Assembly: GCA_964372205.1 (NCBI GenBank)
Contig: CAYJQB010000001.1
Coordinates: 226,967 to 290,966 of the forward strand
DNA from: Candidatus Woesearchaeota archaeon
GTDB lineage: Archaea > Nanobdellota > Nanobdellia > Pacearchaeales > GW2011-AR1
DNA length: 64,000 nucleotides
Direction of reading: 5' to 3'
A program made the position numbers and the translations under genes. The notes beneath the pieces were generated by a model. That model saw nothing but the letters and a program-made list of their open reading frames with translations. It was not told the DNA's origin and did no database searches. Each line of letters begins with the position of its first letter. Within the stretch, counting starts at the first letter, position 1. Shown here in pieces: positions 7,419 to 60,529 of this stretch.

Positions 7419-7444
7419 TAACCGAAGAATTTCTATTTAAACAT

Positions 7445-10400: not shown

Positions 10401-11656
10401 CCAATATCCAATTGTACTCTTCTAAACCTGTCATCCATCCATGAAAAACTTTCAGAAGAATAACCTGTTGGAGGCTCAAGACTTAACAGAATATCTTTAT
10501 TAATTTCTAATGTAGAGTACATTGGCTTGGCATTTCCAAAGAAAGGAGGTCTGAACACTGTAAGTCCTGCATTTGCGGGAACGCTCTCAAGAACAGTAAG
10601 CACAGCAGCAGTTTGCAAACAAGGTCTACAACCAGAGTCATTCAACGGCTCTAAAGATATTGTTTTAATGATTGAATCTCCAGGTTGTGCAGTATATGGA
10701 AGCACAGGAACAAGAGAGCTGTTGTAAAGAGGACCTGCTCTTGAGTCAAATGGTTGTTCTTTAGTGGTCTTGTAATTAACAGTCCATCCATGATGGCTTC
10801 CGTCATAGTCAGGAGTCATACTTGTGATGGTTACAGGCCCCACAACCCAATAATCACCATTCGCGAACTGTCCATATTCTACATCTTCAGAAAAAGTCCA
10901 AGTTATTCCATACTGCGATAAACTAGAATTATAATCTCCTTCAGGATTGTATTCGTCATTGTCGCTAGTATCATCACATCCTGAATCTTCCAAATCAATA
11001 AGTCCATCACCATCATCATCAACACCATTAGAACAAGCAGGAGAGCTTCCTCCACCTCCTCCCCCACCGCCACCTCCTCCTCCGCCTCCTCCATTCCCAC
11101 GAGTTCCATCATCCCCATCTCCACCTTCATCTAACTGACAATTTATAGGAGAGACAGCAGAACAATACCCAAAAGATTCAGAACCAGCAGATATCTGAAC
11201 ATAATCAACACTCGACACTTCATCTCTAGAAAAGCTGAACTCTTTACTTCCAGGAGATAAATCAACCTTTCTCACAAACGGAAGAAATGCAAGCCAGTCA
11301 ACAGTCTTTTGCACAAGAATCCCAAGAGGAGAGAAATAAACATCTTCAGAAATACTATCATCAAGATTTTCAGTTGGATCTCCAAAAACAAAGTTTATTG
11401 AATCAACATTATCAAGATTTCCCTCAACAGTAACTTTAACCTCATCATTATCATATAAACAAGAAATAGGTTTTACAGAAGCTTCACTACAAAACTGTTC
11501 CAAAGATTGTGTTGTTCCATCTGCTCCTGAAGAAGTAGAATTTCCATCACTAATCAACTGAGGAAGAAACACAAGAAGTATTCCAACTGTAACAACAATT
11601 ATAGCAAGAACTAGATAATGCACAGGCTGTAATGTAAACCACCCTCTTTTAAACAT
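7445..11656 (-). CDS. giant secreted/surface protein (1403 aa) with signal anchor, 16-Gly tract, Cys-rich module and right-handed parallel beta-helix (pectate-lyase-fold) repeats
   Basis: Continuous 1403-aa ORF; first ~230 aa nearly identical to the neighbouring gene; Cys-rich CAPVMGYCVGG...CNGG block; repeated NNxIxxxxxxGI / IENNYIHD beta-helix repeats; conserved C-terminal ~40 aa shared with the paralogue. Confidence 0.85.
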   Translation of the reverse strand: MFKRGWFTLQPVHYLVLAIIVVTVGILLVFLPQLISDGNSTSSGADGTTQSLEQFCSEASVKPISCLYDNDEVKVTVEGNLDNVDSINFVFGDPTENLDDSISEDVYFSPLGILVQKTVDWLAFLPFVRKVDLSPGSKEFSFSRDEVSSVDYVQISAGSESFGYCSAVSPINCQLDEGGDGDDGTRGNGGGGGGGGGGGGGGGSSPACSNGVDDDGDGLIDLEDSGCDDTSDNDEYNPEGDYNSSLSQYGITWTFSEDVEYGQFANGDYWVVGPVTITSMTPDYDGSHHGWTVNYKTTKEQPFDSRAGPLYNSSLVPVLPYTAQPGDSIIKTISLEPLNDSGCRPCLQTAAVLTVLESVPANAGLTVFRPPFFGNAKPMYSTLEINKDILLSLEPPTGYSSESFSWMDDRFRRVQLDIGSYPGEQVRPYDNYNRSGSYRGYGGRVAIDNGDAALRFMLNDTYEDKFPQLVHYMQMGIDLYHIMDNGGVWYPNGGHGSGRKTPIIFTALLFNNQTWKDDVMNAPKMTFQEDGFLTFYPQANSGVGTVLFGEGTSWYWRALATDSASRTLSDPYGYIDGGVVPGTSYQKGINSLIWKGSVLINQLLPEAKNVWNNQLFEDYVNRWVNLGAWAQPDICAPVMGYCVGGSNNGNVCTYANVNACPNGYCAGGQCNGGDYNGQLCGVDHGPSPNDDCGGVRCENLIPEFYKVTYGENPNNLSSCIMDSDPSDGIGRFPYRHGQDNNTGGAGYISGFAEAMWNKYRINPPECRDFEDNDGDGLIDYGLDLECLSSDDNTENSTDEEATYYVSTSGNDGNPGTISQPWKTLQHAADVIQPRDTVLVREGVYDEIGYHYDARDEDISVWFNNEGLPGQPITFKAYPGEKPVVSGFSSLPGWQLCASQAECQDNPNWQNVYYVNKSNLPPIEEVVLFEESTLLSVAQDPTPVDKLYFNKPDGWYSPSEITQTSITDAAVFTHPDSNYWVGSYLIIHSGNNNIFYREILTYDPNLHIVTFESLDTSLEQDKDTYSLWNHPSIMDEPGEFYVDYDMSRIYLWPLSSVNNIQEFGKNIAFELNGKNNIIIDGFTIEGYVGTPIVNRDKGSNSDIQNIEIRNNELRHIKGFSIGILLADNLLIENNYIHDTLIGRGISIGGRNSSVQGTGFLVRSNEITRVGRTGIYFAFAKDGIISDNYIHDSAGQHGNSISTYQNSQDILVENNTVINATDMTVSESERITFRYNHGNVGISGWNSSYEGRSPNGITIERNSLVGSIGFGDNFQNVVVKNNIFGGGAVGPNYDRHHNLFVTDHWQQRTYNLSNYFESQELDMSLVFIDEANGDYHLTESSPIGEPPVDPCSMADDGGYVGAYPCLGGGGLPVGDLNYSPEEESNGWAKLIDNFKKILGFSIEEI
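11023..11656. repeat. ~640-bp direct repeat, copy 2 (5' end of giant gene 2)
   Basis: See copy 1. Confidence 0.8.
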
Positions 11657-20530: not shown

Positions 20531-20674
20531 TGGCCCCGAGGGGATTTGAACCCCCGACACCTGGATTTCTCCTTTCTGGCAATCTTAGTTTCTTTGATTT
20601 CCAGGGAAACTTTCTTTTCTAAAGAAAGTAAGCCTTAAGAGTCCAGTGCTCTAACCAGGCTGAGCTACGAGGCC
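20531..20674 (-). tRNA. tRNA-Lys (anticodon CTT) with 69-nt intron at canonical 37/38 position
   Basis: Hand-folded cloverleaf: acceptor GGCCTCG/CGGGGCC, D-stem GCTC/GAGC, anticodon stem CTGGA/TCCAG with loop CTCTTAA, T-arm GGGGG-TTCAAAT-CCCCT, discriminator A; anticodon 3' strand displaced by a 69-nt insert; BRE/TATA (tttaaaaa) ~28 nt upstream. Confidence 0.8.
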
Positions 20675-33585: not shown

Positions 33586-33700
33586 ATGCAAAAGTGTATT
33601 ACGCCCGGACCAAACACAGCACACTTTTGCATAATCACTGGGACTCGTATTGATTAGCTTATTTCTTTCTAGTGGCTAGGATTTTTAAGCATTCTCGAGA
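33586..33700. repeat. intergenic repeat copy A: 12-bp perfect hairpin enclosing a 14-nt copy of the tRNA-Ser 3' end, plus motif2 (gggactcgtattgattagctt) and motif3 (ggatttttaagcattctcgaga)
   Basis: atgcaaaagtgt / acacttttgcat inverted repeat; ttacgcccggacca identical to 38774-38787; motifs shared with copies B and C. Confidence 0.7.
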
Positions 33701-33768
33701 TGGAAGTGATATGTGATTATTTCACCTCAATCGGAAGATTTATATATAAGTAAGATATTCTTACCGGT

Positions 33769-34035
33769 ATGAAAATAGAGCTAACAAAAATAAGCAGTAA
33801 GGGACAAGTAGTCATACCTTTAGACGTGAGAAGAAAGCTTGCCCTTAAGGATGGAGAGACACTTGCAGTTTCTACTGAAGATGACTTAATTGTATTGAAA
33901 AAGGTAAAGAACCCTATGGAAGAAGATGATTTGCGTACTCTTAAGGAAATAAAAGAAGCTTGGAAAGAGATTGCACAAGGGAAATATAGAAAAATGAACA
34001 AAGAAGATTTTCTCAAAGAAATTGAGACCTGGTAA
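33769..34035 (+). CDS. AbrB/MazE/SpoVT-family antitoxin
   Basis: SKGQVVIPLDVRRKLALKDGETL swapped-hairpin motif. Confidence 0.7.
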   Translation: MKIELTKISSKGQVVIPLDVRRKLALKDGETLAVSTEDDLIVLKKVKNPMEEDDLRTLKEIKEAWKEIAQGKYRKMNKEDFLKEIETW

Positions 34036-34281
34036 ATGGTAGAATATATCTTTACAGAAAAATTTGAGAAGGAATTTAAAAAAGCAGACAATTCTATTAA
34101 AGAAAAAGCACGAAAACAAATAAAAAAGATACTTGAAGACCCAGAAACAGGAAAGCCATTAAGATATGACCTAAAAGGCGAGAGAACAGTCTATGTCAAA
34201 CCATTTAGAATAATATATTCGTTCTCGAATAACACAATTTACTTCCTACGATTTGAACATCGCAGCGAAGTTTATGATTAA
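34036..34281 (+). CDS. RelE/ParE family toxin
   Basis: YRIIYSFSNNTIYFLRFEHRSEVY C-terminal RelE consensus; start abuts antitoxin stop. Confidence 0.7.
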   Translation: MVEYIFTEKFEKEFKKADNSIKEKARKQIKKILEDPETGKPLRYDLKGERTVYVKPFRIIYSFSNNTIYFLRFEHRSEVYD

Positions 34282-34293
34282 TAACTAATCCGT

Positions 34294-34352
34294 GGGACTC
34301 TGATCGATTAGCTTCTTTTCTCTGATCTCTAGAATTTTTAAGGATTGTCGAC
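34294..34352. repeat. intergenic repeat copy B (motif2 plus motif3 only)
   Basis: gggactctgatcgattagctt ... gaatttttaaggattgtcgac, about 75% identical to the corresponding part of copy A. Confidence 0.6.
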
Positions 34353-34367
34353 TACTTCCAAGAAGAG

Positions 34368-34955
34368 TCACTCAAATCTCACATTTATTACGTAAGCCTC
34401 TCCGAGAAACAAATCATAACCCTCCCTATTGAGGGTTTTTTCAAATTCTTTTATTTTTGTCTTTGGAGGAGAGTCGCAACGATCTAATCTCCTTTTTAAG
34501 GCCAACACTCCTCCTCGGTCTGCCCTTTGCTCATTATCCGAAATCGGAACGTTTGTGAATTCAAGATTAACCTTGCTTGAAGCATTATCCAGAACTTCTA
34601 ACATTGCTTTTTCTCCGACCAGAGCTTCTAGAGCGTGCGCCTCTTCATGACCTCTAACAAATTCTGTGTGAAGTCCATCCATTCCAGAGCGGTAGGAAGT
34701 TCTTAAGGTAAGGCTTATTAGCTCTTCATTATTCCCGGCTACTACGCGTGTGGCTATACATAAACCAGTTGTTTGCATGTCTGATAAAATATTGTCTATA
34801 GTTTTCAATACAGGTTTTAAAGAAGGTCTCTCTGCTTTCATTCTATAGAGAAAGTAATTTCCAACAGCTCCATCATCATAATAACGTACATCAACACCTC
34901 CAGGTACAGGGACTTCAATTCCTAATCTTTCAAGATAAATTGTGTTTGTCATCAT
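34368..34955 (-). CDS. hypothetical HExxH-motif protein (possible small metallopeptidase, ImmA/IrrE-like?)
   Basis: RGHEEAHALE... with a Glu ~20 residues downstream; local GC visibly higher than surroundings. Confidence 0.35.
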   Translation of the reverse strand: MMTNTIYLERLGIEVPVPGGVDVRYYDDGAVGNYFLYRMKAERPSLKPVLKTIDNILSDMQTTGLCIATRVVAGNNEELISLTLRTSYRSGMDGLHTEFVRGHEEAHALEALVGEKAMLEVLDNASSKVNLEFTNVPISDNEQRADRGGVLALKRRLDRCDSPPKTKIKEFEKTLNREGYDLFLGEAYVINVRFE

Positions 34956-35041
34956 TATTCTGTTCTTATCAAGAGGACGAGTTTAATATTCATATTTAAA
35001 ACTTTCTATGTTGTTACTATTATTAAGAAACAAAAATGGTA

Positions 35042-35151
35042 TTACGCCCAGACCAAACCGAACCCTATCATGCGATATTTTAGGGACGGTTTTATGTACA
35101 AGTTATATACAAGATTTGCTAGACTTTTAGGATTTTTAAGGATTGTCGAGA
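35042..35151. repeat. intergenic repeat copy C: degenerate copy of tRNA-Ser 3' end (ttacgcccagacca, one mismatch) plus motif3 ggatttttaaggattgtcgaga
   Basis: Aligned by eye with copy A and with the tRNA-Ser 3' end. Confidence 0.65.
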
Positions 35152-35164
35152 TAGAATTGATGGA

Positions 35165-35923
35165 TTAAATATACCCTTTCCATTCTTCCTCACAAGGAAT
35201 TTCAAATTTCTCAAACGGGGCCTTAGTCTTCAATGGGAAGAATAAAGACTGGTTTATGTATGCTCTTGAATCCAAATGTGCTAGCAAATTTGCTATAAAG
35301 TAAGCGAAACTTAGATTTGGGATCTCATATCCTTTAAGTGAAAATGGTTTATGTTCCCACCAAACATGCAGAAATTTTTCATCTCCTAAGGCGATGTTGC
35401 TAACTTTTTTAAAAATTGAACAATCAGTTATGTTAAAATAATCTTTTAAAGAGTCTCGAATTGTATTGATAGTGAGAAAGCATTCATAACAAAACAAGCC
35501 ATTGAATATTTTATCATTTTGTGCAACAGTTTCTATTTTTTTGCCATTTTGTTCGCATTTCTTAATAGTTTCTTTGAGATCTGAACCATTCCTAATTGAG
35601 GTCTTAACTTCGATTATAGCTCTGACTATATTCGCAGGAACAATTACAAAATCTCCTTCTGAGAATAAAACAGGTGAACGATCATCGTAGATTATTAGAT
35701 CTATTTGGTTGGTTAATTCTTTTTTTGGATTTATTACAAATCCTGTTCCAATTGAGAGATTTTTTGGCAAAAATCGAGAGATAACATTCTTTAATACAGC
35801 CTCTTTATATCTCCCATCTTCTCCCCAGTGAGCCTCTCCTATCAGACTCCTTACTCTATCCTTAACAGCAATTAATTCTTTGTTTATTGATTCATAAAAA
35901 TTTTTGAAATCTTGTTCTACCAT
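35165..35923 (-). CDS. predicted PD-(D/E)xK-fold nuclease-like protein
   Basis: QIDLIIYDD ... FVIVPANIVRAIIEVKTS gives the D...(D/E)xK arrangement with flanking hydrophobic strands; 252 aa; 7-nt overlap with upstream gene. Confidence 0.45.
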   Translation of the reverse strand: MVEQDFKNFYESINKELIAVKDRVRSLIGEAHWGEDGRYKEAVLKNVISRFLPKNLSIGTGFVINPKKELTNQIDLIIYDDRSPVLFSEGDFVIVPANIVRAIIEVKTSIRNGSDLKETIKKCEQNGKKIETVAQNDKIFNGLFCYECFLTINTIRDSLKDYFNITDCSIFKKVSNIALGDEKFLHVWWEHKPFSLKGYEIPNLSFAYFIANLLAHLDSRAYINQSLFFPLKTKAPFEKFEIPCEEEWKGYI

Positions 35924-36597
35924 TTTTCGTATTGTAAGTTTTCTATATTTACATCCATTTTTTCTTTTTTAATTATCATATCCCATACTATGTACTTTAC
36001 ATCTTTTACCTTAAAATCATAATTATATGGAATGATTATTTTTTGATTTGGAAGAATTTTTCCTTTTTGGACAGGAGCTGTATATAAAACAGTATCCCCT
36101 ATAGTGAAGATAACATCCAAGTTCACATATTCACTATAATCATCTCCTATATTTGATAACACTATCTCTCCCGAAGACGTATGAATTGTGTCATCTAATG
36201 TTTCCTCTAAAGAATTAAACAATGGAATGGATTTAGAAACACAAGTCCCAAATGTGCTTGAGCCACAACCCAATAACTGAGCTGAATAGGCGGCCAGAAT
36301 TATAGAATCTTTTGTTATGGTGATTGCATGATAATCTCCTCTTTCATTGATCTTGTAATATTCAATTTTTGCGCTATTAACTTCCAAAGGAGATGGATCT
36401 TCTCCATCTAAATATCTATCTCCATCAGTGTTTGGGTTTGTTAAGTTTGTTCCCAAATTGAGTTCTTCTTCATCACTTAATCCATCTTTGTCAGTGTCCA
36501 TTGGTTTGCTCACTAGAAAAATTATAGCTAACAAGGCTACCAAGATAATTACAATTAAGCATAGAATCCAGTGAAACAAATCACCCTTTCTATTCAT
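35917..36597 (-). CDS. membrane-anchored protein with thrombospondin-type-3-like Ca-binding repeats (likely start MNRKGDLFHW)
   Basis: TM helix ILCLIVIILVALLAIIFLV followed by DTDKDGLSDEEE and NPNTDGDRYLDGED acidic D-x-D-x-D-G repeats; ATGA start/stop overlap with the upstream small peptide gene. Confidence 0.5.
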   Translation of the reverse strand: MNRKGDLFHWILCLIVIILVALLAIIFLVSKPMDTDKDGLSDEEELNLGTNLTNPNTDGDRYLDGEDPSPLEVNSAKIEYYKINERGDYHAITITKDSIILAAYSAQLLGCGSSTFGTCVSKSIPLFNSLEETLDDTIHTSSGEIVLSNIGDDYSEYVNLDVIFTIGDTVLYTAPVQKGKILPNQKIIIPYNYDFKVKDVKYIVWDMIIKKEKMDVNIENLQYEKW

Positions 36598-36758
36598 TTT
36601 CCATATGCTCCAAAAACAACGGCTAGTACAATCAGTATTCCCATTATTCCGCCAAATAACCAACCAAACACACTTCCAAAAGCAGTGATTATAGCTGTTG
36701 CGGCTCCAGTGGACAAAACTATTATGGCCATTATTATTGTTATTATCAATTTTTCCAT
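36594..36758 (-). CDS. 54-aa Gly-rich double-TM peptide (GlsB/YeaQ/YmgE-like transglycosylase-associated family?)
   Basis: Hand-found ORF MEKLIITIIMAIIVLSTGAATAIITAFGSVFGWLFGGIMGILIVLAVVFGAYGK with GGAGGT Shine-Dalgarno-like sequence 8 nt upstream; translationally coupled to the next gene. Confidence 0.45.
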   Translation of the reverse strand: MEKLIITIIMAIIVLSTGAATAIITAFGSVFGWLFGGIMGILIVLAVVFGAYGK

Positions 36759-36940
36759 TTTACCTTACCTCCATTTTATTTCTAGTGAATAAGAAGTAGC
36801 CTCAGAGGATACCCTCCAGGGTTACCTCTTTTTCTTTCAAAACGTGGTTTGAGAGATATTTATATTTTTCTACTGGTTCTTTAACTAACTTGTATAAATT
36901 TTGTACATAAAAACAGCCCACGAGATGTTTATAACCAGAT

Positions 36941-38617
36941 CTAATTTTCTTGATAAATATTTTCAAAAGAATTGTTTGGATTTCTTCTCACCAAACGAAT
37001 ATAATCTGCTTTTATTTTTCTGGACATATTCTGAACAAATTGAGAATTTTTAAAGATGTTTTTATAGTCCAAAAAACCATCATTTTGTTCAATATATTCT
37101 TCAAAGTCGATATTTATATCTGGAGTAATTAGCTCCCAAACCTTCTTAATAGTTGCAACAAATTTGGCTTTGTTTGTTGTTATACACTCTAAAGGATCAT
37201 CAATAATTTGCTTTCCAAGGTTGTCTTCTCTCAATATCTCTGCTAATACGTGCGAGAAGAAAAAGATGGAAAGCCCGTAGTCTCTTAAATGTTCATTATT
37301 TAACAAACCTGCTTCGTTTTTAACAAGGTCATATACGACCTTCCCAAGATATATTTTATTCGCAGAGATATTTCTTGAGAAAATATGATTATATTCTTCT
37401 CCAAATAATTTTTGTTTAAGATGGGTATTATGGGGTTTACCTAAATAGAAGGCCATAATTACCTGAGCAGCAAAATCTTTTTCAATTATCTCAGCTTCCG
37501 AGTTCAATTCCTCTCCTCGCTTCCTTCTGTAAAGAATATTTCCTTCAAATGTACGTTCAAACTCAGTCTGAATGGTTTTTTGCACAGAATCGTTTGATTT
37601 TAAATCCTTCAAACTTATGGAGTTTTGATTGTTAGTATAGAAAGTTATTTTCTTTACAAGAGGAGAAGTAGGGTTCAATTTTATTATTTTAACAAGGATA
37701 AAAAGATTATTGCTCAATGAATCTCTATTTTCAAAAAATGTTAACATTGATTGACATCCGTTGATTAAGGAATATCCTCCAAGAGTAATTTTGTGATTTG
37801 TTAGGTCCTCAGAGAAGTCTCTACAAATTATTGTAATGCCATTATGATACATAAAAAAATTGTTATGTTCTGAAGTATCCAAGATAGTTTTTTTGATGGC
37901 TTTGTTTACCCTGGTATTCCCAACACCATATCTTACATTTTTATAAAAAAGAGTCCTATCTTGAATACCTTCAAGTTTGACTAACTCCTTTGCTTTAATT
38001 GCATAGGTCCTAACAAGAGTACCATCAGGGAGGTTATATTCTATTTTTGAGGGATTTTGGATTGAAAGGTCTTTTTGAGGGAAGTTTGTTTCTTGGTCTG
38101 CAAAATAAGTATACTTGTCAAATAAAATATTAGAGTCATAACCCTCAAAATCAGTTATTGTGTTTATATAATCTTTCGCAGGAGAATTAAATATTTTGTT
38201 TGTAGTAAAAATTAGAACTTTTTTGTAATGAGTCTTTTCAGACAAGTTATTTCTTTCTACAAGAGATTTTAGCTCTCTATTTGCATCACTGTTGAGTAGA
38301 TTATTTATAGAATCACTACCTTCAAACCAGATCCTTGTTCCAACAAAATTTCTTATGTCTCTATCTCCTTGATCTTGGTTGTTGTTAGGGCTGAATTTTG
38401 ATTGAAATAAGTAAATTGTTTCTTCATCATCATCTACATATAATCCATCAATTCCTTTATCATTTCTATGATCGCACACACTATCTATTGCTTCTAAAGG
38501 ATCAAGCCTAAAAAAATTTTCAAGAAACCATATCAAAAATGCAGAAGACTCTTCTCTACCCGAACTATATTCAGAGACCTCATCCCTCATCCGATTATAG
38601 AATTCAGATTGATTCAT
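36941..38617 (-). CDS. AIPR-family abortive-infection-like protein
   Basis: 558 aa; N-terminal FLIWFLENFFRLDPLEAIDSVCDHRNDKGIDGLYVDDDEETIYLFQSKFS resembles the Mrr-like DG-IDG...Q-K N-terminal nuclease module of AIPR proteins. Confidence 0.55.
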   Translation of the reverse strand: MNQSEFYNRMRDEVSEYSSGREESSAFLIWFLENFFRLDPLEAIDSVCDHRNDKGIDGLYVDDDEETIYLFQSKFSPNNNQDQGDRDIRNFVGTRIWFEGSDSINNLLNSDANRELKSLVERNNLSEKTHYKKVLIFTTNKIFNSPAKDYINTITDFEGYDSNILFDKYTYFADQETNFPQKDLSIQNPSKIEYNLPDGTLVRTYAIKAKELVKLEGIQDRTLFYKNVRYGVGNTRVNKAIKKTILDTSEHNNFFMYHNGITIICRDFSEDLTNHKITLGGYSLINGCQSMLTFFENRDSLSNNLFILVKIIKLNPTSPLVKKITFYTNNQNSISLKDLKSNDSVQKTIQTEFERTFEGNILYRRKRGEELNSEAEIIEKDFAAQVIMAFYLGKPHNTHLKQKLFGEEYNHIFSRNISANKIYLGKVVYDLVKNEAGLLNNEHLRDYGLSIFFFSHVLAEILREDNLGKQIIDDPLECITTNKAKFVATIKKVWELITPDINIDFEEYIEQNDGFLDYKNIFKNSQFVQNMSRKIKADYIRLVRRNPNNSFENIYQEN

Positions 38618-38776
38618 AAATACAAATCAGTAATTGAACTTTAAATGAATTTCTATAATTGACTTTTTAGCTCTTTTACCAGCAAATTTCTTTTGTCATT
38701 TATGGAAAATTATCAAGAAATAACTTGTATAAAACTTGTATATACTCCGTCCCATGATTATCGCACAATAGGGTTA

Positions 38777-38861
38777 CGCCCGGACCAGGATTTGAACCTG
38801 GGAATCGCTTGCGCGAAACGGGATTAGCAATCCCGCGCAGTAACCGCTGTGCCATCCGGGC
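38777..38861 (-). tRNA. tRNA-Ser (anticodon GCT), long variable arm
   Basis: Hand-folded: acceptor GCCCGGA/TCCGGGC, anticodon stem CGGGA/TCCCG with loop TTGCTAA, long variable arm, T-arm CCAGG-TTCAAAT-CCTGG, discriminator G. Confidence 0.85.
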
Positions 38862-38907
38862 ATAAATTGATTAGAAAAAGATTGCTTTTAAGTCTTATTA
38901 TAGATTC

Positions 38908-39602: not shown

Positions 39603-40070
39603 TTAATCTAGTATTTTCTGATAAACGAATAATCCTTTTTCATACTCTATCTTTTCCCAAGCCCTCATACTCTGCATATTTCCAACCTCTACAAGAAACA
39701 TTATTTCTCGGATTCCTGCCCCCCTTAAGAATGATTCCATTTCCTTCATTATCTCTCCTCCAATGCCCTTGTTCTGCATATCCCCTCTGACAGATATCTC
39801 TGTTATTTCTCCATGTTCCTCAAACTTAGAGAAATTGACACTTTTCAGAATTTTACATGCCCCAAATCCAATAACCTCTTCATTCAACTCATAGACAATC
39901 AGCTTTCTTTTATCTTCGCCAATATATTTTTTGAATCTTTCTTGAAAATCTTTTTTTTCATTATCTTTCAGCGCGAATCTTCCTGGTTTGATTTTAACTA
40001 GTTTTTTTACTAACATTTCATGAAGCAAATACACTTTATTAAAATCCTCAATTTTAGCATCCCTAATCAT
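39603..40070 (-). CDS. GNAT family N-acetyltransferase
   Basis: MQNKGIGGEIMKEM (QxxGxG) motif. Confidence 0.65.
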   Translation of the reverse strand: MIRDAKIEDFNKVYLLHEMLVKKLVKIKPGRFALKDNEKKDFQERFKKYIGEDKRKLIVYELNEEVIGFGACKILKSVNFSKFEEHGEITEISVRGDMQNKGIGGEIMKEMESFLRGAGIREIMFLVEVGNMQSMRAWEKIEYEKGLFVYQKILD

Positions 40071-40122
40071 AGTCGCATGAAGACGATAACATTTAAAAGT
40101 CCTTTCATCGCTGTATTGTTAT

Positions 40123-42805: not shown

Positions 42806-43489
42806 ATGTACATAATAGGGGTGGACGATGCCGGAAGAGGTCCTTTAATTGGTCCAATGGTTTTAGCAGGGGTTTTGATAAAAACAGCAGACCAGGATTT
42901 CTTGAAAGAATCAGGAGTAAAAGACTCCAAAATGCTCACTCAGGAAAAACGTCTTGCTCTCGATGAATTAATCAAATCAAAATCCCTTGGATATAAAGCA
43001 GTTCTAGTTCCTCCAATCGAAATCGATGATGCAGTTCTCTCAGGAAGAAACTTAAACAATCTGGAAGCAATAAAATGTGCTGAAGTAATAGACTCCTTGA
43101 ATACAGAAGACATGCATGATAAAGAGATAAAGGTTATTGTAGACTGTCCATCTCCAAACACAAAAGCTTGGCAAGCTGTTCTCATCTCACATATAAAATA
43201 TTCTAAAAATCTAAAGATAAAATGTGAGCATAAAGCAGATGCGAATCATCCGTGTGTTTCAGCAGCATCTGTTTTGGCAAAATTAGCAAGAGAAGAAGCT
43301 GTAGCAGAAATCAAATCTCAATATGGGAATATAGGTTCAGGTTATCTAACAGACCCAGTAACTCAAGCATTCATAAAAGAAAAAAGCGCAGAACTTGAAA
43401 ACTCAGGCATATTCAGAAAATCATGGTCTACTTGGACTAATCTTGTCGCAGAAAAACAACAGAAGAAACTATTCGGGATATTCTTCTAG
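42806..43489 (+). CDS. rnhB: ribonuclease HII
   Basis: IIGVDDAGRGPLIGPMV N-terminal catalytic motif and DxxS...D region of RNase HII. Confidence 0.8.
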   Translation: MYIIGVDDAGRGPLIGPMVLAGVLIKTADQDFLKESGVKDSKMLTQEKRLALDELIKSKSLGYKAVLVPPIEIDDAVLSGRNLNNLEAIKCAEVIDSLNTEDMHDKEIKVIVDCPSPNTKAWQAVLISHIKYSKNLKIKCEHKADANHPCVSAASVLAKLAREEAVAEIKSQYGNIGSGYLTDPVTQAFIKEKSAELENSGIFRKSWSTWTNLVAEKQQKKLFGIFF

Positions 43490-44341
43490 TTTTTTCATCG
43501 CTAGCTTTATTGATTTGGAATTAGACGAAAATACTTTCCAAGGATTTTTCTCAAGATATCTTGAAATGCTTTTTATTGTATATTTATCAAATTTAAAATC
43601 TGGTTTAAGCTCATTCCAAGAGAGAGGCATTGCGATTGTTCCAGGCTCTTTTGCTCTTAATGAATAAGGCACGACTTTTAGTTGAGCTCTTGCGTTTCTC
43701 AAATAATCAATGAAAACTCTCCCTTTTCTCTTATTTATTCTCTGTTCTGTTGTGAACTTGTCAGGATTTATTTTTTCAATTATCTCAGCTATTCTTCTCG
43801 AAAACTTCTTTGTTTCATTAAACGTGACGTCTCTCTTTATAGGCACAATTATGTGAAAGCCCTTCTGACCGGTTGATAACAAATAACTCTTTAATTCTAG
43901 GGAGTCAAGAATCTTTTTTACTGCATTCGTTGCCTGAACTGCATCAGAAAGTTTTTTCTCATTCGGAGGATCAATGTCCCATACAACAACCTCCGGATAA
44001 TCAATTTTGTCAATCCTTGACAGCCAATGATGAAAAATCAGAGTATCTTGATTAGCAAGGTATACTAAAGTGTCTTTATCATTGCATACAACATATTCAG
44101 TTCCATTGATTTTCTTTGTTTTAATCCACTTAGGAAAATACCCCCCAGCATTTTTCTGATAGAAACACATTTTTCCAGCACCTTCAACACATCTCTCAAG
44201 AGCAATAGGTCTATCTTTCACATAAGGAAGAATTTTGTTTGAAACTTTAATGTAATAATTAATTACATCTTTTTTGGTTATCTTTGATTTAGGATAGATA
44301 ATCTTGTCAGGATGAGTGATTTCTACTTTTCCGATTTTCAT
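43469..44341 (-). CDS. LigD-type polymerase/primase (PrimPol) domain protein, stand-alone
   Basis: ITHPDKIIYP...ITKKDVINYY...DRPIALERC...FYQK motifs as in the NHEJ LigD Pol domain. Confidence 0.65.
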   Translation of the reverse strand: MKIGKVEITHPDKIIYPKSKITKKDVINYYIKVSNKILPYVKDRPIALERCVEGAGKMCFYQKNAGGYFPKWIKTKKINGTEYVVCNDKDTLVYLANQDTLIFHHWLSRIDKIDYPEVVVWDIDPPNEKKLSDAVQATNAVKKILDSLELKSYLLSTGQKGFHIIVPIKRDVTFNETKKFSRRIAEIIEKINPDKFTTEQRINKRKGRVFIDYLRNARAQLKVVPYSLRAKEPGTIAMPLSWNELKPDFKFDKYTIKSISRYLEKNPWKVFSSNSKSIKLAMKKLEEYPE

Positions 44342-44913
44342 TTTTTCTTCTTTCCTCTTGCAATCTGCTCAAGAGTTTTTCCAGACTTTACAGACTTATT
44401 TTCTCCAGCAATCTTCTTATTTGCAAAATCATCTTTCATTTTGAATAACAGCCAGTTTTTGTTTTGTCCTTTAAATCTTATTAGTGCATAAGCTCCATTC
44501 AGTTTCTTCCCTTCAAGAAACACTTCTATCATCCCCATTTCATAAGACTTCTTCATGTCAATAGGAGTTTCTTTTTCTCCTTTGAGGTTTATGAATTTAC
44601 CTTTGTCCCAGAGCATAACAGTTCCAGCTCCGTAATTTCCTTCAGGAATAATGCCTTCAAAGTTTCCATAGTCCATTGGATGTTCCTCTGTTTCAACAGC
44701 GAGCCGTTTATCGGTAGGATTATTAGAAATTCCCTTAGGCACAGCCCAGGATTTTAGCGCTCCTTCTATTTCTAATCTAAAATCATAATGTAACTGTGAA
44801 GCATCATGTTTCTGAACAACAAATACTCCTTTCTTCCCAGAGCTTTTCTTCACTTTCCATTTCGGCTCAGGAGTCTTATCGAATTTCCTCTTTTTTTCAT
44901 ATACTGTTGGCAT
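44338..44913 (-). CDS. LigD-type 3'-phosphoesterase domain protein, stand-alone
   Basis: FVVQKHDASQLHYDFRLE...LKSWAVPKG...EHPMDYGNFEGIIPEGNYGAGTVMLWD matches LigD PE domain motifs; 4-nt overlap with Pol gene. Confidence 0.7.
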   Translation of the reverse strand: MPTVYEKKRKFDKTPEPKWKVKKSSGKKGVFVVQKHDASQLHYDFRLEIEGALKSWAVPKGISNNPTDKRLAVETEEHPMDYGNFEGIIPEGNYGAGTVMLWDKGKFINLKGEKETPIDMKKSYEMGMIEVFLEGKKLNGAYALIRFKGQNKNWLLFKMKDDFANKKIAGENKSVKSGKTLEQIARGKKKK

Positions 44914-45023
44914 CCTTTAAGGAGGAAAAAGGTATTAATTAATGTTTTCCAATAAAATATGTCTTATAACGACTAACAAAAGCCCTAAATAATCTTTAAA
45001 TAACTCATATCCCAATAGATATC

Positions 45024-47894
45024 ATGACTCACATAAAAAGGTTGGTGATACAAGGATTCAAGTCATTCGCTCCAAAGACAGAGATACACTTCGGCCAAGG
45101 TATAAACGTCATAGTTGGTCCAAATGGCTCTGGTAAAAGCAACATCTCAGACGCATTATGCTTTGTTCTCGGTAGATTGTCTATAAAGTCCATGAGAGCT
45201 GCAAAAGCAAGCAATCTCCTTTTCATGGGGAGCAAATACACAAAGCCTGCTAAAGAGGCAAGCGTTGAATTGGTATTTGATAACACTAATAAGACTTTTT
45301 CTTTTGAAGCTCCAGAAGTATCTCTTAAGAGAGTTGTCAGACACAACGGTCAGAGCATATACAAAATAAATGACGAAGTAAAAACAAGAGCTGAGATTGT
45401 AGAAACGCTTGCACATGCAGGAATAGATCCTCATGGTTTTAATCTAGTTCTTCAGGGCCAGATACAAGCAATTGTGAAAACTCACCCTGAAGAGAGAAGA
45501 AAAATAGTAGAAGAAGTTGCAGGAATCTCCATCTATGAAATGAGGAAGGAGAAGTCTATAAAAGAATTAGACAAAACAGAAGAAAGACTAAAAGAAATAT
45601 CTACAATATTAAGAGAAAGAACAGCATTTCTAAGAAATCTTGAAAAAGAAAGAAGTCAGGCTCTAAGATACAAAGAGTTAGAGACTACTATAAAGAGATG
45701 TAAAGCATCCATCCTAAGCAGAAGAATACAAGACAAACAGAAAGAAGTTGAGAATATCCAAAAAACAATTCTTGAAAAGACTGCTCAAAGAGACAAAATA
45801 AAGGAATCAATCAGACAAACACAGGATTCTATAGATGAGATGAATGAGAACATTTCCAAAATCAATAAACACATTCAAAGGTCCACAGGTTTGGAACAGG
45901 AAACTCTCAGGACACAGATATCAAACTTAAGAGCAGAGATAGAAGGCCTGAAAGTAAGGAAAGAGAATTTTGAGCATAGACAACAGGAAATAGAAAGAAG
46001 GATAGAAGAGATGCAAAAATCCATTCCAGAGAATGAATCAGAAATTCTTGAACTAAGGAAAGAATCTCCAATGGTTGCTAAAAAACAAGAAGAGCTGAAA
46101 AAGAAAAAAGAAGAACTTAAGCAGATAGAAGAGGAAAAGAAGCAAGTATACACATTAAGAACAGAATTAAACGCAGTAAAAGAGCGCATTAGAGACAAAG
46201 AACTCAATCTAGAAAGACTAAGCTCGCAATCAGATTCTATTCTAAAGCAGATAGAAGAATACTCTACAGATATAGAATATGAAACAAGAGAGTCATGTGA
46301 GAAAGAAATATCTTCCTTAAAGAAGTCTGTCCAAGATTACAAGATTAAGATTGAAGAGTTAGTAAAGTTAGAGTTAGAGCAGAACAGAAAAATAACCTCA
46401 TCAGAGACTACAATTGCTTCTTCAGAAAAGATAAAATCTCAAGTCCAGAGCATAGAAGTTTGCCCCCTTTGCCAGAACAAGATGACTCCAGATCATCTCT
46501 CACACGTTCTATCAGACTCAGATAGCAAGATAGAAGAATCAAGAAAAATAATCTCAATTTCAGAAGAAGAGATATCAAAGATATTTAACTCCAAGAAAGG
46601 TTTTCAGGAAGAGCTTCAAAAATTAGGTATGAGGCAATCCAAATTGGAAAACGAGCTCCATACTCATAGGATTATCACAGACAAAAAATCACAGATTAAA
46701 TCTTTACTAGAACAGGAAGAAAAGCTGAAAACAGAAATAAAGTCTCTTCAAGTAAAAAGAGATAATCTTCAATCCCATACATTAGACACTTCGAGAATAG
46801 ACGAGAAATATGGAGCCAAGATTATGGAGATAGAGGAAATTTCTGCAAGAACAACAGAAGACATCGACAAGACTTTGATGTACAAAGAAAGAGAGCTTGA
46901 AAGAATGAAAGAAGTCATCAAGCTAAGCAAGCGTGATTTAGGTGAGATGGAGCAGGAAGTCACAGAGATAGCAGAAACAATAGAATCTAAGATTGAAACT
47001 TTGGAGAAGAAAGAAGAAGAGGATGCAGAGCTTACAGCTAAGTTCAAGAAGCTTTTTGCAGAGAGAGACAAGCTTCAGGAGATAATCCAGGAGAAGAGTT
47101 ACGAGTTAAGTAGTTCTCAAACTTCAGCAGCACAGATTGAAGAGCAAGTCAACTATTTGAAGGTTGGAAATGCAAAATTAAGCGCCGAAAGAGAAGCAAT
47201 AGAGATGGAGTTAAAAGAGTTTTCAGGAATTGAGCTGATAAAATCGCCACTTTCCTTTCTTGATGAAAAATTGAAGAAATCTCAGGAAGCTATAAGCACA
47301 ATAGGTCCTACAAACATGAGGGCTTTAGAAGTATATGATGGAGTAAAGGAAGAATATGACAAAGTCTATGAAAAAGTGCAAACAATAGAAAATGAAAAAA
47401 ATGAGATTCTAAGAATTATAGAAGAGATAGACAAGAAAAAAAAGAAATCATTCATGAAGACTTTCAACGGGATAAGTGATCTCTTCAGTAGCAACTTCTC
47501 TAAACTTTCTTCAAAAGGTCAGGCTTTCTTGGAGTTAGAGGACAAAGAGGACATTTTCAACGGAGGAGTGAATATAGTAGTAAAACTCGCAAAGGGAAAA
47601 TATTTCGATGTCACTTCTCTATCTGGAGGAGAACAGACTCTTATCGCAATATCTCTCCTATTCGCCATTCAAGAATTCAGGCCATATCACTTTTATGTTC
47701 TAGATGAGATAGATGCAGCCCTAGACAAAAGAAACTCAGAAAGGTTGTCTGCATTACTTAGAAAATATATGAAAGATGGTCAGTATATTGTAATTACTCA
47801 TAATGATGCTCTCATAATGGACTCTGATATCCTATACGGAGTTAGCATGCATGAGGGTGTTTCTAAAATCTTAAGCCTCAAGCTAAGTGAGTAA
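45024..47894 (+). CDS. smc: SMC-family ATPase (short, 956 aa) with mid-coil CPLC motif
   Basis: N-terminal GFKSF...GPNGSGKSN Walker A and VLGRLSIKSMRA SMC signature, C-terminal LSGGEQTLIAISLLFAI ABC signature and YVLDEIDAALD D-loop; long coiled coils; VCPLCQ at the midpoint. Confidence 0.7.
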   Translation: MTHIKRLVIQGFKSFAPKTEIHFGQGINVIVGPNGSGKSNISDALCFVLGRLSIKSMRAAKASNLLFMGSKYTKPAKEASVELVFDNTNKTFSFEAPEVSLKRVVRHNGQSIYKINDEVKTRAEIVETLAHAGIDPHGFNLVLQGQIQAIVKTHPEERRKIVEEVAGISIYEMRKEKSIKELDKTEERLKEISTILRERTAFLRNLEKERSQALRYKELETTIKRCKASILSRRIQDKQKEVENIQKTILEKTAQRDKIKESIRQTQDSIDEMNENISKINKHIQRSTGLEQETLRTQISNLRAEIEGLKVRKENFEHRQQEIERRIEEMQKSIPENESEILELRKESPMVAKKQEELKKKKEELKQIEEEKKQVYTLRTELNAVKERIRDKELNLERLSSQSDSILKQIEEYSTDIEYETRESCEKEISSLKKSVQDYKIKIEELVKLELEQNRKITSSETTIASSEKIKSQVQSIEVCPLCQNKMTPDHLSHVLSDSDSKIEESRKIISISEEEISKIFNSKKGFQEELQKLGMRQSKLENELHTHRIITDKKSQIKSLLEQEEKLKTEIKSLQVKRDNLQSHTLDTSRIDEKYGAKIMEIEEISARTTEDIDKTLMYKERELERMKEVIKLSKRDLGEMEQEVTEIAETIESKIETLEKKEEEDAELTAKFKKLFAERDKLQEIIQEKSYELSSSQTSAAQIEEQVNYLKVGNAKLSAEREAIEMELKEFSGIELIKSPLSFLDEKLKKSQEAISTIGPTNMRALEVYDGVKEEYDKVYEKVQTIENEKNEILRIIEEIDKKKKKSFMKTFNGISDLFSSNFSKLSSKGQAFLELEDKEDIFNGGVNIVVKLAKGKYFDVTSLSGGEQTLIAISLLFAIQEFRPYHFYVLDEIDAALDKRNSERLSALLRKYMKDGQYIVITHNDALIMDSDILYGVSMHEGVSKILSLKLSE

Positions 47895-59629: not shown

Positions 59630-60529
59630 TTAAAGATTACTATGGGCTTGAGGGGGAATAAAGTGCTTCCTCCTCCCTTTTCCATTTTTGATATTCCAGT
59701 ACTTTCTGAACTCGCAAAGTGCCCCCTCGATATTAGTTATAGAAAGATATGGATAATTTGAAAATGCTTTCTCATACGCAATGCTTTCCCATTTTTCTGA
59801 AAGAGAATCTTTTTGCATCTCATATAGCTCATACAGCCTATGCTTAACTTCTTTATTGCTTAATTTCTTTCCATAGATTATTTCTAATCCCCACTTTGCT
59901 CCAGGCCCAACGTTCACAAAGTCGTTATCATTCCAGCCCTGCCTAAAGAATCCTAAGTAAGTCAAATCCGTCCATATTTCACACGCAAGGAACGGACCAA
60001 CCATCGGAATTCTTTTTAATATCTCGAAAGACTCTTCAGGAGTGCTACTTTGGTCTATTCTTTTTATTATTTCACTAGAATTGTTGGAAAGAATTTTCAA
60101 ATTGTTTAGGACACTAACATGTTTATCTTCACCTTTTTTCCCTGAAATAATGTAAGCATTGTTGAACAAAGGTTTACCCAATTTTTTCATCCTATCGAAC
60201 TTTTTTAGGATTTCAGCTTTAACTCCATCGTCAAACTTCTTAAACGGCTCTATCTCCAATTCCTCATACAATCCGTGTCTGTTAAAAAATCTGTAAAATA
60301 CAACATTGAGAAGAATTGATTTCCTGTCACTCAATTTGTTTAGTTTTTTCAATAAATAAATGGTGCACTTGTCAAGCTCCCTATACATATTGATTACTTT
60401 ATATTTCTGTAGAATTTTATCCTCAGTCCAAGGGGAACGTTCTTTTAGAACAAATCTCTTATGCCAAATTAAATGTCTTCTGTAAATGAAATCAAAAAAC
60501 TCTTGTTTTAAATTTTCTCGCACAGGCAT
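59630..60529 (-). CDS. 299-aa protein resembling the alpha-glutamyl/putrescinyl thymine pyrophosphorylase (aGPT-Pplase) / DNA base hypermodification family; assignment tentative
   Basis: N-terminal FFDFIYRRHLIWHKRF...PWTEDKILQKYKVINMYRELDKCT resembles the conserved FxxERHxI...PWTxDxIL..Y.F.NVYRExD block of that family (from memory); start codon overlaps the nusA stop. Confidence 0.4.
   Translation of the reverse strand: MPVRENLKQEFFDFIYRRHLIWHKRFVLKERSPWTEDKILQKYKVINMYRELDKCTIYLLKKLNKLSDRKSILLNVVFYRFFNRHGLYEELEIEPFKKFDDGVKAEILKKFDRMKKLGKPLFNNAYIISGKKGEDKHVSVLNNLKILSNNSSEIIKRIDQSSTPEESFEILKRIPMVGPFLACEIWTDLTYLGFFRQGWNDNDFVNVGPGAKWGLEIIYGKKLSNKEVKHRLYELYEMQKDSLSEKWESIAYEKAFSNYPYLSITNIEGALCEFRKYWNIKNGKGRRKHFIPPQAHSNL

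What the first reader, a model, noticed from the sequence alone, without database searches (positions are those of the whole stretch)
36941..38617. AIPR-family abortive-infection homologue immediately adjacent to tRNA-Ser
The 558-aa protein has the N-terminal FLIWFLE...DKGIDGLYVDDDEETIYLFQSKFS module. From memory this matches the Mrr-like nuclease head of AIPR (abortive infection phage resistance) proteins, followed by a long alpha-helical region. AIPR proteins are mechanistically uncharacterised and rare in archaea. Its location as the first gene after the tRNA, inside the inferred insert, fits acquired defence.
Basis: partly seen in the sequence, partly recalled or inferred. Interest (0 to 1): 0.55.

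Follow-up and report, generated by a model that had tools for sequence, protein, structure and literature searches.

The report
AbiU/AIPR defence nuclease on tRNA-Ser islet
This gene encodes an ordinary member of the widespread AbiU1/AIPR family of anti-virus nucleases, carried on a small piece of foreign DNA inserted next to a tRNA-Ser gene in a DPANN archaeon; it is a well-documented example, not a new kind of system.

Summary
A 558-aa ORF (36941-38617, minus strand) starts 158 nt downstream of tRNA-Ser(GCT) and contains the quoted motif.

- **Family:** it is a solid AIPR (PF10592, 123.6 bits) and PADLOC AbiU match. The AIPR domain covers residues 224-502, not the N-terminus.
- **How common:** about 4,300 clusters at 50% identity. 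Homologues of 58-67% identity occur in bacteria and archaea, with no conserved partner gene. AbiU is reported as one of the commonest archaeal defence systems, so "rare in archaea" is wrong.
- **Insert:** the inference holds. A relative (flanks about 89% identical) has 249 bp where the window has 5,171 bp. The insert is bounded by 14-bp repeats of the tRNA 3' end, has low GC, and consists of two tandem modules. The AIPR module has 53-nt inverted ends and no recombinase.

Verdict: a new member of a known kind. The mechanism is inferred, not shown.

The parts
36941..38617 (-). AbiU1/AIPR-family gene, 558 aa, intact
   Evidence: ORF; Pfam AIPR 1.7e-35; PADLOC AbiU 1.7e-38; full-length alignment with homologues
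38093..38617 (-). N-terminal Mrr/FokI-like PD-(D/E)xK nuclease domain (about residues 1-175)
38396..38449 (-). Predicted catalytic motif D57 ... Q72-S-K74 (GIDG...FQSK)
   Evidence: D57 56/56, Q72 56/56, K74 48/56, D53 55/56 in alignment A3; invariant in A2
37112..37948 (-). AIPR domain proper (residues 224-502): alpha/beta core with invariant R229, N259-G260, N286-G287-x-Q289, N329-x-Q331, followed by helices
36944..37111 (-). C-terminal helical tail (residues 503-558)
   Evidence: Secondary structure of the AF2 models
38776..38862 (-). tRNA-Ser(GCT), intact; its 3' end is the insertion site
   Evidence: ARAGORN; Rfam; same sequence in relative L048, read by eye
33602..38772 (.). Strain-specific 5,171-bp insert (two tandem modules), replaced by 249 bp in a related genome
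   Evidence: blastn synteny breakpoints against L048; GC 32.8% against 36.9%, with 0 of 194 equal-size windows as low
38774..38787 (+). 14-nt direct repeat TTACGCCCGGACCA (last 11 nt of the tRNA plus 3 nt)
   Evidence: 3 copies in the window against 0.04 expected
35042..35055 (+). Direct-repeat copy B (1 mismatch), the boundary between module 1 and module 2
33599..33612 (+). Direct-repeat copy A (exact), the distal boundary of the insert
38724..38775 (+). Terminal inverted repeat of module 1, tRNA-proximal arm
   Evidence: I3 and I10; about 43/53 identical to the other arm; motifs found 2-3 times against 0.00 expected
35061..35113 (-). Terminal inverted repeat of module 1, distal arm
36889..36919 (+). 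Third, partial copy of the repeat-end motif immediately after the AIPR stop codon
   Evidence: I1
35165..35923 (-). Co-resident DUF6602 / NucC-like PD-DExK nuclease gene in the same module; not linked to AIPR elsewhere
   Evidence: Pfam DUF6602 3.4e-22; PADLOC PD_DExK 9.8e-28 and NucC 9e-18; PDB NucC 3.8e-8; no linkage in other loci
35917..36663 (-). Co-resident membrane protein with a TSP3-type repeat (plus a small TM ORF at 36594-36758)

Best explanation
The gene encodes a stand-alone, single-polypeptide anti-virus nuclease of the AbiU1/AIPR family.

**Shown**
- It is an intact AIPR/AbiU-family protein.
- Its N-terminal roughly 175 residues form a Mrr/FokI/MspJI-type PD-(D/E)xK domain with a conserved D57...Q72-x-K74 site.
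- It has no conserved partner gene.
- It sits in a 5.2-kb low-GC insert at the 3' end of tRNA-Ser(GCT) that a closely related DPANN (Pacearchaeota-like) genome lacks.

**Inferred**
- The head cleaves DNA.
- The AIPR core is a remote ParB/sulfiredoxin-fold module related to DndB and DUF262. It acts as the sensing or licensing part, binding DNA and perhaps a nucleotide, so that the nuclease is unleashed only during infection or on foreign DNA.
- The outcome is early damage to viral (and possibly host) DNA. This is compatible with the weak protection and delayed phage transcription reported for lactococcal AbiU.
- The gene arrived by horizontal transfer as cargo of a small mobile module.
For: - **Family:** Pfam AIPR 123.6 bits; PADLOC AbiU 1.7e-38; 30% identity (E 3e-16) over the core to the AIPR protein of a Lactococcus plasmid that sits next to a HEPN_AbiU2 gene.
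- **Stand-alone:** no neighbour family is shared by more than 3 of 26 loci.
- **Mobile or defence context elsewhere:** integrases, C5 methyltransferases and an OLD-like ATPase nearby; 119 plasmids carry homologues.
- **Insertion:** empty site in L048; direct repeats; low GC.
- **Horizontal transfer:** 58-67% identity to bacterial and other archaeal homologues, while the host IleRS is only 60-63% identical to hits that carry a Pacearchaeota name.
Against: - No biochemical or genetic data exist for this protein or for any AIPR protein in the papers I could reach. The review lists the AbiU mechanism as unknown.
- The ParB/Srx assignment is weak here. Foldseek against PDB found nothing significant (best E 0.86). 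A profile search of PDB sequences gave 0 hits. hhalign against BrxU was negative. No DUF262, ParBc or DndB appeared among the 25 most frequently hit Pfam families (34 were hit in all).
- The motif is NGCQS. The Arg of the GxxR/DGQQR phosphate-binding motif that I recall from ParB and DUF262 is absent, so nucleotide binding is uncertain.
- The window protein's own Mrr_cat score is below threshold.
- Reported AbiU protection is weak, a 10^-1 to 10^-2 drop in efficiency of plaquing.
Confidence: 0.6

Rival explanations
1. It is a Type IV, modification-dependent restriction enzyme rather than an abortive-infection protein. The AIPR core would recognise modified viral DNA directly, following the logic of GmrSD, BrxU and SspE. 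The Mrr-like head would cut only that DNA, and the cell would survive.
For: - The closest structural matches of the head are Mrr-family or modification-dependent enzymes (AF1548, MspJI, AspBHI).
- There is no cognate methyltransferase as a conserved neighbour.
- The literature groups AIPR with COG1479/DUF262.
Against: - Catalytic-domain fold says nothing about substrate choice.
- The only phenotype on record is abortive-type delayed transcription with weak protection.
Confidence: 0.25
2. The protein serves the mobile module itself rather than host defence. It could be an addiction or stabilisation nuclease, or part of the machinery that moves the module with its inverted-repeat ends.
For: - Module 1 has 53-nt inverted ends and 14-nt flanking repeats but no integrase or transposase.
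- It does encode two PD-(D/E)xK-type nucleases and a ParB-like domain.
- A partial copy of the end motif sits right after the AIPR stop codon.
Against: - Homologues in 26 other loci have no shared neighbours.
- Among the strongest flank matches reported per locus there were no comparable inverted repeats, though the method was insensitive.
- Several homologues sit next to ordinary tyrosine integrases.
- The inverted-repeat motif was found nowhere else in the metagenome or viral collections.
Confidence: 0.07
3. It acts on RNA, as older annotation of AIPR N-termini as HEPN domains and the delayed-transcription phenotype of AbiU might suggest.
For: - Makarova et al. [quoted passage not shown]
- AbiU delays phage transcription.
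Against: - The N-terminus of this protein is a PD-(D/E)xK fold with D...QxK, not HEPN.
- No HEPN family is hit.
- In Lactococcus the HEPN domain lies in the separate AbiU2 protein, and no such partner exists in the window.
Confidence: 0.05
4. It is a decaying, non-functional passenger gene.
For: It lies in a recombinase-less, possibly fossil islet.
Against: - It is full length with no frameshift.
- All family-invariant residues are present.
- A metagenome contig differs by only 1 nt in 4,241 and encodes an identical protein.
Confidence: 0.03

Closest known systems
Lactococcus lactis AbiU1 (AbiUi), the founding AIPR protein
   Same: - Same AIPR core: 30% identity over residues 208-395, E 3e-16.
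- The PADLOC AbiU model matches at 1.7e-38.
- Similar size (558 against 589 aa).
- A nuclease-like N-terminal domain is reported to resemble FokI.
- It acts as a single gene.
   Different: - The N-termini are barely alignable.
- The lactococcal protein has no Mrr_cat hit and is followed by a HEPN AbiU2 gene, which the window lacks.
- The host here is a DPANN archaeon.
Mrr_cat-AIPR proteins annotated 'AIPR family protein' in bacteria and archaea (for example Moranbacteria GW2011_GWF2_34_56, Flavobacterium sp. UMI-01, Bathyarchaeia)
   Same: 58-67% identity over the full length, with the same domain order and the same invariant residues.
   Different: Nothing of substance. Only the host and the insertion site differ.
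GmrSD / BrxU / SspE (DUF262 ParB-like NTPase fused to a nuclease) and DndB
   Same: - Same design logic: a ParB/Srx-superfamily module fused to a DNA nuclease in one defence polypeptide.
- The literature groups AIPR with COG1479 and DndB.
   Different: - The nuclease here is an N-terminal PD-(D/E)xK domain, not a C-terminal HNH/DUF1524.
- The motif is NGCQS rather than DGQQR or DGQHR (those two recalled from memory).
- No sequence-profile link was detected here.
MzaE of the MZA system
   Same: Contains an AIPR domain.
Mrr / MspJI / AspBHI / FokI cleavage domains
   Same: Same fold and same D...QxK-type catalytic motif.
   Different: Those enzymes use SRA-like, winged-helix or sequence-specific recognition domains. 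Here the partner is an AIPR domain.
tRNA-targeted integrative islands; casposons (terminal inverted repeats plus 14-15 bp target duplication at tRNA 3' ends, recalled from memory)
   Same: The insert lies at the tRNA 3' end with 14-bp direct repeats, tandem modules and 53-nt inverted ends.
   Different: No integrase, Cas1 or polymerase was found among the tested ORFs of the window. The module is only 3.7 kb.

Membership tests
AIPR (Pfam PF10592) | Match to the family HMM above the gathering score | tested here: met
   123.6 bits against a cutoff of 25, E 1.7e-35, residues 224-502; 57/57 homologues also match
AbiU (PADLOC PDLC02357) | Match to the AbiU model | tested here: met
   E 1.7e-38, 131.1 bits, model positions 241-535 of 537
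AbiU (lactococcal two-gene locus) | Adjacent HEPN AbiU2 gene | tested here: not met
   The Lactococcus locus has HEPN_AbiU2. The window neighbours are a membrane protein and a DUF6602 protein. AbiUi alone is reported to be sufficient, so this partner is not essential.
AbiU / AIPR | Confers phage resistance with an abortive phenotype | not testable with these tools
   Needs expression and virus challenge
Mrr_cat (PF04471) / PD-(D/E)xK nuclease | HMM match above the gathering score | tested here: inconclusive
   The window N-terminus scores 16.6 bits against a cutoff of 21. 29/34 and 37/57 homologues match, best 1.1e-9.
Mrr_cat / PD-(D/E)xK nuclease | Restriction-endonuclease-like fold | tested here: met
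Mrr_cat / PD-(D/E)xK nuclease | Conserved D...(E/Q)xK catalytic residues | tested here: met
   D57 56/56, Q72 56/56, K74 48/56
ParB/Srx superfamily (DUF262, DndB) | ParB/Srx fold of the core | tested here: inconclusive
ParB/Srx superfamily (DUF262, DndB) | Sequence-profile relationship and the GxxR / DGQ(Q/H)R motif | tested here: not met
   No DUF262, ParBc or DndB among the 25 most frequently hit Pfam families; hhalign against BrxU gave probability 0.13; the motif is NGCQS, without Arg. A single-sequence template is a weak test.
MzaE (NCBIfam NF041935) | Equivalog score | tested here: not met
   23.9 bits against a cutoff of 1050
tRNA-integrated genomic island | Present or absent between related genomes, bounded by a duplicated tRNA 3' end | tested here: met
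   Breakpoints at 38773 and 33601 against L048; three repeat copies against 0.04 expected
tRNA-integrated genomic island | Cognate integrase inside the island | tested here: not met
   No integrase or recombinase family in any ORF of the insert or among the tested ORFs of the window (tblastn)
Casposon | Cas1 casposase and family-B polymerase | tested here: not met
   None among the tested ORFs. Only the end architecture resembles a casposon.

The most novel reading that the evidence does not exclude
Module 1 (35056-38773) may be a non-autonomous mobile cassette of an undescribed or casposon-like type. It has 53-nt terminal inverted repeats, a 14-bp duplication of the tRNA-Ser 3' end, tandem accretion with a second module that shares the same roughly 135-nt distal end, and no recombinase. 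It would shuttle defence nucleases (AIPR plus a NucC-like DUF6602 protein) between DPANN archaea and be mobilised in trans. A bolder version is that its own PD-(D/E)xK and ParB-like proteins take part in its movement.
Probability: 0.12. Interest if true: 0.55.

Novelty: new member of a known kind. Interest (0 to 1): 0.25.

Why it matters
The gene itself adds little. Mrr-head AIPR proteins are already annotated automatically, number in the thousands, and are common in archaea.

The useful points are these:
1. A clean domain map that corrects which part of the protein is "AIPR".
2. Structural support for reading the family as a PD-(D/E)xK nuclease fused to a remote ParB/Srx-like module. This gives a testable mechanism for a defence family that still has none.
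3. A textbook occupied-site versus empty-site pair showing recent acquisition of defence genes at a tRNA hotspot in a reduced DPANN genome. The unusual ends (inverted repeats and no recombinase) may deserve a look by people who study archaeal mobile elements.

Tried and rejected
- **MzaE/MZA membership:** rejected.
- **HEPN N-terminus:** rejected.
- **PDB relatives by sequence:** none with a single sequence or a profile.
- **Foldseek of the C-terminal model against PDB:** nothing significant.
- **hhalign of the family profile against BrxU (DUF262):** negative, but this was a weak test with a single-sequence template.
- **Weak Pfam hits to DUF262, ParBc or DndB across 57 members:** none among the 25 families listed.
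- **Conserved partner genes:** none. DUF6602, the TSP3 protein and the small ORFs are found only in the same population.
- **tRNA adjacency as a family trait:** rejected, 2 of 29 loci.
- **Scans for the inverted-repeat motif:** the first two used a wrong spacer (N7 instead of N6) and are void. The corrected pattern matches both arms in the window but nothing in the metagenome or viral contigs.
- **The blastn-short screen for flanking repeats in other loci:** too insensitive for imperfect inverted repeats. It nearly missed the window's own, so absence elsewhere is only weak evidence.
- **Source genome:** not among the loci returned by the AIPR-pattern scan of the GTDB representative genomes.
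- **Integrase or Cas1 in the window:** Pfam scans covered 41 of the 48 ORFs of at least 150 aa plus several shorter ones, and none was found. The other small ORFs and the rest of the genome were not tested.

Full report
**Observation.** The window has an ATG-initiated ORF at 36941..38617 on the minus strand. tRNA-Ser(GCT) lies at 38776..38862 on the same strand (Rfam 56.3 bits). That puts the ATG 158 nt downstream of the tRNA 3' end, and no ORF of 50 aa or more lies wholly between them. Homologues of 558-566 aa align from the first Met to the end, which supports this start and shows the gene is intact.

**Family tests.** Pfam gives a single hit, AIPR (PF10592), with E 1.7e-35 and 123.6 bits against a gathering score of 25. 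The hit covers residues 224-502, not the N-terminal motif. The PADLOC AbiU model matches at 1.7e-38. NCBIfam's MzaE equivalog scores 23.9 bits against 1050, so this is not MzaE. No solved structure is related by sequence, either with the single protein or with a family profile.

**N-terminal head.**
- In 34 close homologues, D49, D53, G55, D57, D62, E66 and Q72-S73-K74 are invariant.
- In a 57-member alignment reaching down to about 23% identity, D57 and Q72 are 56/56, D53 is 55/56 and K74 is 48/56.
- Pfam Mrr_cat is hit by 29/34 close members and 37/57 divergent members, best 1.1e-9.
- The window's own N-terminus reaches only 16.6 bits against a cutoff of 21, alongside a weak HamA hit.

It is a separate domain from Pfam's AIPR.

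**AIPR core.** Residues of roughly 200-400 are alpha/beta, not purely helical. They carry the family's invariant polar residues: F224, R229, N259-G260, N286-G287-x-Q289 and N329-x-Q331. A separate model of residues 186-558 is confident (pLDDT 92, pTM 0.77).

The link is not robust in my hands. Foldseek found nothing significant. No DUF262, ParBc or DndB appeared among the 25 most frequently hit Pfam families. hhalign against a single BrxU sequence was negative. I treat the ParB/Srx assignment as likely but unproven.

**How common it is.** An exhaustive HMMER search of 1.84 billion cluster representatives finds 4,313 clusters at E<=1e-3 and 1,930 at <=1e-10. Most of the best are about 560 aa and match end to end.

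- Homologues of 58-67% identity occur in Moranbacteria, Syntrophorhabdaceae, Flavobacterium and an unclassified archaeon, and also in Caldiserica, Cytophagia, Bathyarchaeia, Iainarchaeum and Methanosarcinales. In all, 11 of 36 genome loci are archaeal.
- A defence-system survey lists AbiU among the eight most frequent archaeal systems and finds it significantly more frequent in archaea than in bacteria (bioRxiv 10.1101/2024.10.26.620412). "Rare in archaea" is therefore not supported.
- 119 plasmids carry more distant AIPR genes, usually annotated "AIPR family protein".
- On Lactococcus cremoris plasmid pC42, a 589-aa AIPR protein is followed by a HEPN_AbiU2 protein, the classical AbiU arrangement. 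The window protein shares 30% identity with it over the core only.

**Context of homologues.**
- ORFs within 4 kb of 26 homologues share no family in more than three loci. The recurring ones are AAA_14/DUF4143 ATPases (3 loci), C5 DNA methyltransferases (2) and tyrosine integrases (2).
- In one archaeon, integrase plus AIPR form a two-gene islet between RuBisCO and a metallo-beta-lactamase gene.
- In a CdvA-encoding archaeon the gene sits beside an OLD-like ATPase-TOPRIM gene.
- In Moranbacteria it is a solo gene between housekeeping genes.
- Two Bacteroidota loci have 78-nt and 109-nt direct repeats flanking the gene.
- tRNAs are nearby in only 2 of 29 loci.

The protein is a stand-alone, horizontally mobile defence-island gene.

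**The insert.** The host is a DPANN archaeon.
- Its IleRS is 60-63% identical to proteins named Candidatus Pacearchaeota.
- The window carries archaeal housekeeping genes.
- It also has a 144-nt, presumably intron-containing, tRNA.

One IleRS homologue is 91% identical and lies on a 27-kb NCBI contig (GCA_053534795.1), fetched as L048.

- blastn shows collinearity at about 89% identity on both sides. L048 1100-1936 matches window 39603-38773, and L048 2186-10302 matches window 33601-25521. Window 33602-38772 (5,171 bp) is replaced in L048 by 249 bp encoding a 65-aa membrane ORF.
- The breakpoints coincide with copies of TTACGCCCGGACCA, the last 11 nt of the tRNA plus 3 nt. This sequence occurs three times in the window (38774, 35042 with one mismatch, 33599) against 0.04 expected.
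- The insert has 32.8% GC against 36.9% elsewhere. None of 194 equal-size windows outside it is as low.
- It consists of two modules. Module 1 (about 3.7 kb) carries the AIPR gene, a small TM ORF, a TSP3-repeat membrane protein and a DUF6602 protein. Module 2 (about 1.4 kb) carries two unannotated ORFs.
- Module 1 is bounded by an imperfect inverted repeat of about 53 nt, 35061-35113 against 38724-38775, roughly 43/53 identical. A partial third copy lies just after the AIPR stop codon.
- The two modules share a similar distal end of about 135 nt, including a 25-nt motif found only inside the insert.
- No integrase, transposase or Cas1 was found in the insert or among the tested ORFs of the window.
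- A metagenome contig (ERZ13693099) matches window 38748-34508 with one mismatch.
- The inverted-repeat motif has no exact match in the JGI metagenome or IMG/VR collections. Two earlier scans used a wrong spacer and are void.

How it moved is not resolved.

**Mechanism.** What is shown: an intact two-module protein with a conserved PD-(D/E)xK site, no conserved partner, and recent horizontal acquisition.

What is inferred: the Mrr-like head cuts DNA, and the AIPR core (with its helical tail) senses or licenses. This is by analogy with other fusions of a ParB/Srx-like domain and a nuclease (GmrSD, BrxU, SspE), with DndB, and with the finding that a DndB-like ParB-fold protein binds ATP and GTP.

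The only phenotype on record for the family is lactococcal AbiU: delayed phage transcription and a 10- to 100-fold drop in plating efficiency, with the mechanism listed as unknown (PMC13064643). Whether the enzyme aborts infection by also hitting host DNA, or acts as a Type IV-like enzyme on modified viral DNA, cannot be decided here. I give the second about 0.25. A role in maintaining or moving the module, an RNA target and a dead gene are each unlikely, for the reasons listed under the rival explanations.

**Verdict.** This is a correctly recognised, ordinary member of a large, already annotated defence family, so it counts as a new member of a known kind. The open mechanistic question about AIPR is real but is not made more tractable by this particular copy.

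The most interesting by-product is the architecture of the tRNA-Ser islet: 14-bp duplication, 53-nt inverted ends, tandem modules and no recombinase. It resembles casposon-type ends, a comparison I make from memory and did not test. It might represent a non-autonomous archaeal mobile cassette. I put that at about 0.12.

Noticed in passing
window 35165-35923 (-): The gene two ORFs downstream of AIPR, in the same module, is a DUF6602 protein related to NucC, the cA3-activated nuclease of CBASS and type III CRISPR. Scores: PADLOC PD_DExK 9.8e-28, NucC 9e-18, PDB Serratia NucC 3.8e-8. No cyclase or CRISPR partner is nearby. It is not linked to AIPR in other loci.
   Followed up: partly
window 33599-33612, 35042-35055, 38774-38787; 35061-35113 / 38724-38775; 36889-36919: Three direct copies of the tRNA-Ser 3' end and a roughly 53-nt terminal inverted repeat delimit two tandem modules without any recombinase. 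The layout is casposon-like or attachment-site-like, and the motif is absent from the metagenome and viral collections.
   Followed up: yes
window 33677-33701, 34330-34351, 35128-35152: A 22-25-nt motif (ATCTCGACAATCCTTAAAAATCCTA on the minus strand) lies immediately after the stop codons of three consecutive minus-strand genes. A search of the whole window for the 25-nt form (up to 3 mismatches) found only the two outer copies, both inside the insert. It could be a terminator or a cassette-end signal.
   Followed up: partly
L048 1937-2185 (GCA_053534795.1), equivalent to the window insertion site: At the same tRNA-Ser site the related genome has a different 249-bp segment encoding a 65-aa membrane ORF, with no second copy of the 14-nt repeat. 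The site is a variable hotspot with at least two alternative contents.
   Followed up: partly
window 39604-40087 (GNAT gene 39603-40070): The GNAT acetyltransferase gene between tRNA-Met and DoxX is absent from the related genome L048, which has about 30 bp there. This is a second small indel close to the tRNA pair.
   Followed up: partly
window 20531-20674 (-): Rfam finds a 144-nt tRNA (53 bits) that ARAGORN in bacterial mode missed. It presumably contains an intron, consistent with an archaeal host.
   Followed up: no
window 59630-60529 (-): A 299-aa protein between ribosomal protein S7 and RNA polymerase subunit A' matches PF18723, the helical domain of 5-hmdU DNA kinases, at 2.4e-50. That family is known (from memory) from phage thymidine hypermodification. 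Finding it in a conserved archaeal gene neighbourhood is unexpected and might bear on the host's DNA modification status. It has no PDB relative by sequence.
   Followed up: partly
window 43469-47894: LigD-type primase-polymerase and 3'-phosphoesterase genes lie next to Rad50. This is an NHEJ-like repair cluster in a small DPANN genome, and no ligase domain was seen among the ORFs tested.
   Followed up: no
window 3456-11656 (-): Two giant ORFs of 1,320 and 1,403 aa carry Laminin_G_3 and beta-helix domains. They are probably surface or adhesion proteins.
   Followed up: no
L016 3909-3986 / 9701-9778; L017 1411-1519 / 3991-4099: In two Bacteroidota genomes the AIPR homologue is flanked by long direct repeats: 78 nt at 96% identity and 109 nt at 88%. 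In L017 the repeats enclose little more than the gene itself, which suggests cassette-like insertion there too.
   Followed up: partly
L002-L005, L015 (archaeon, 4.2-kb contigs): A tyrosine integrase and the AIPR homologue form a minimal two-gene islet between a RuBisCO large-subunit gene and a metallo-beta-lactamase-fold gene.
   Followed up: partly
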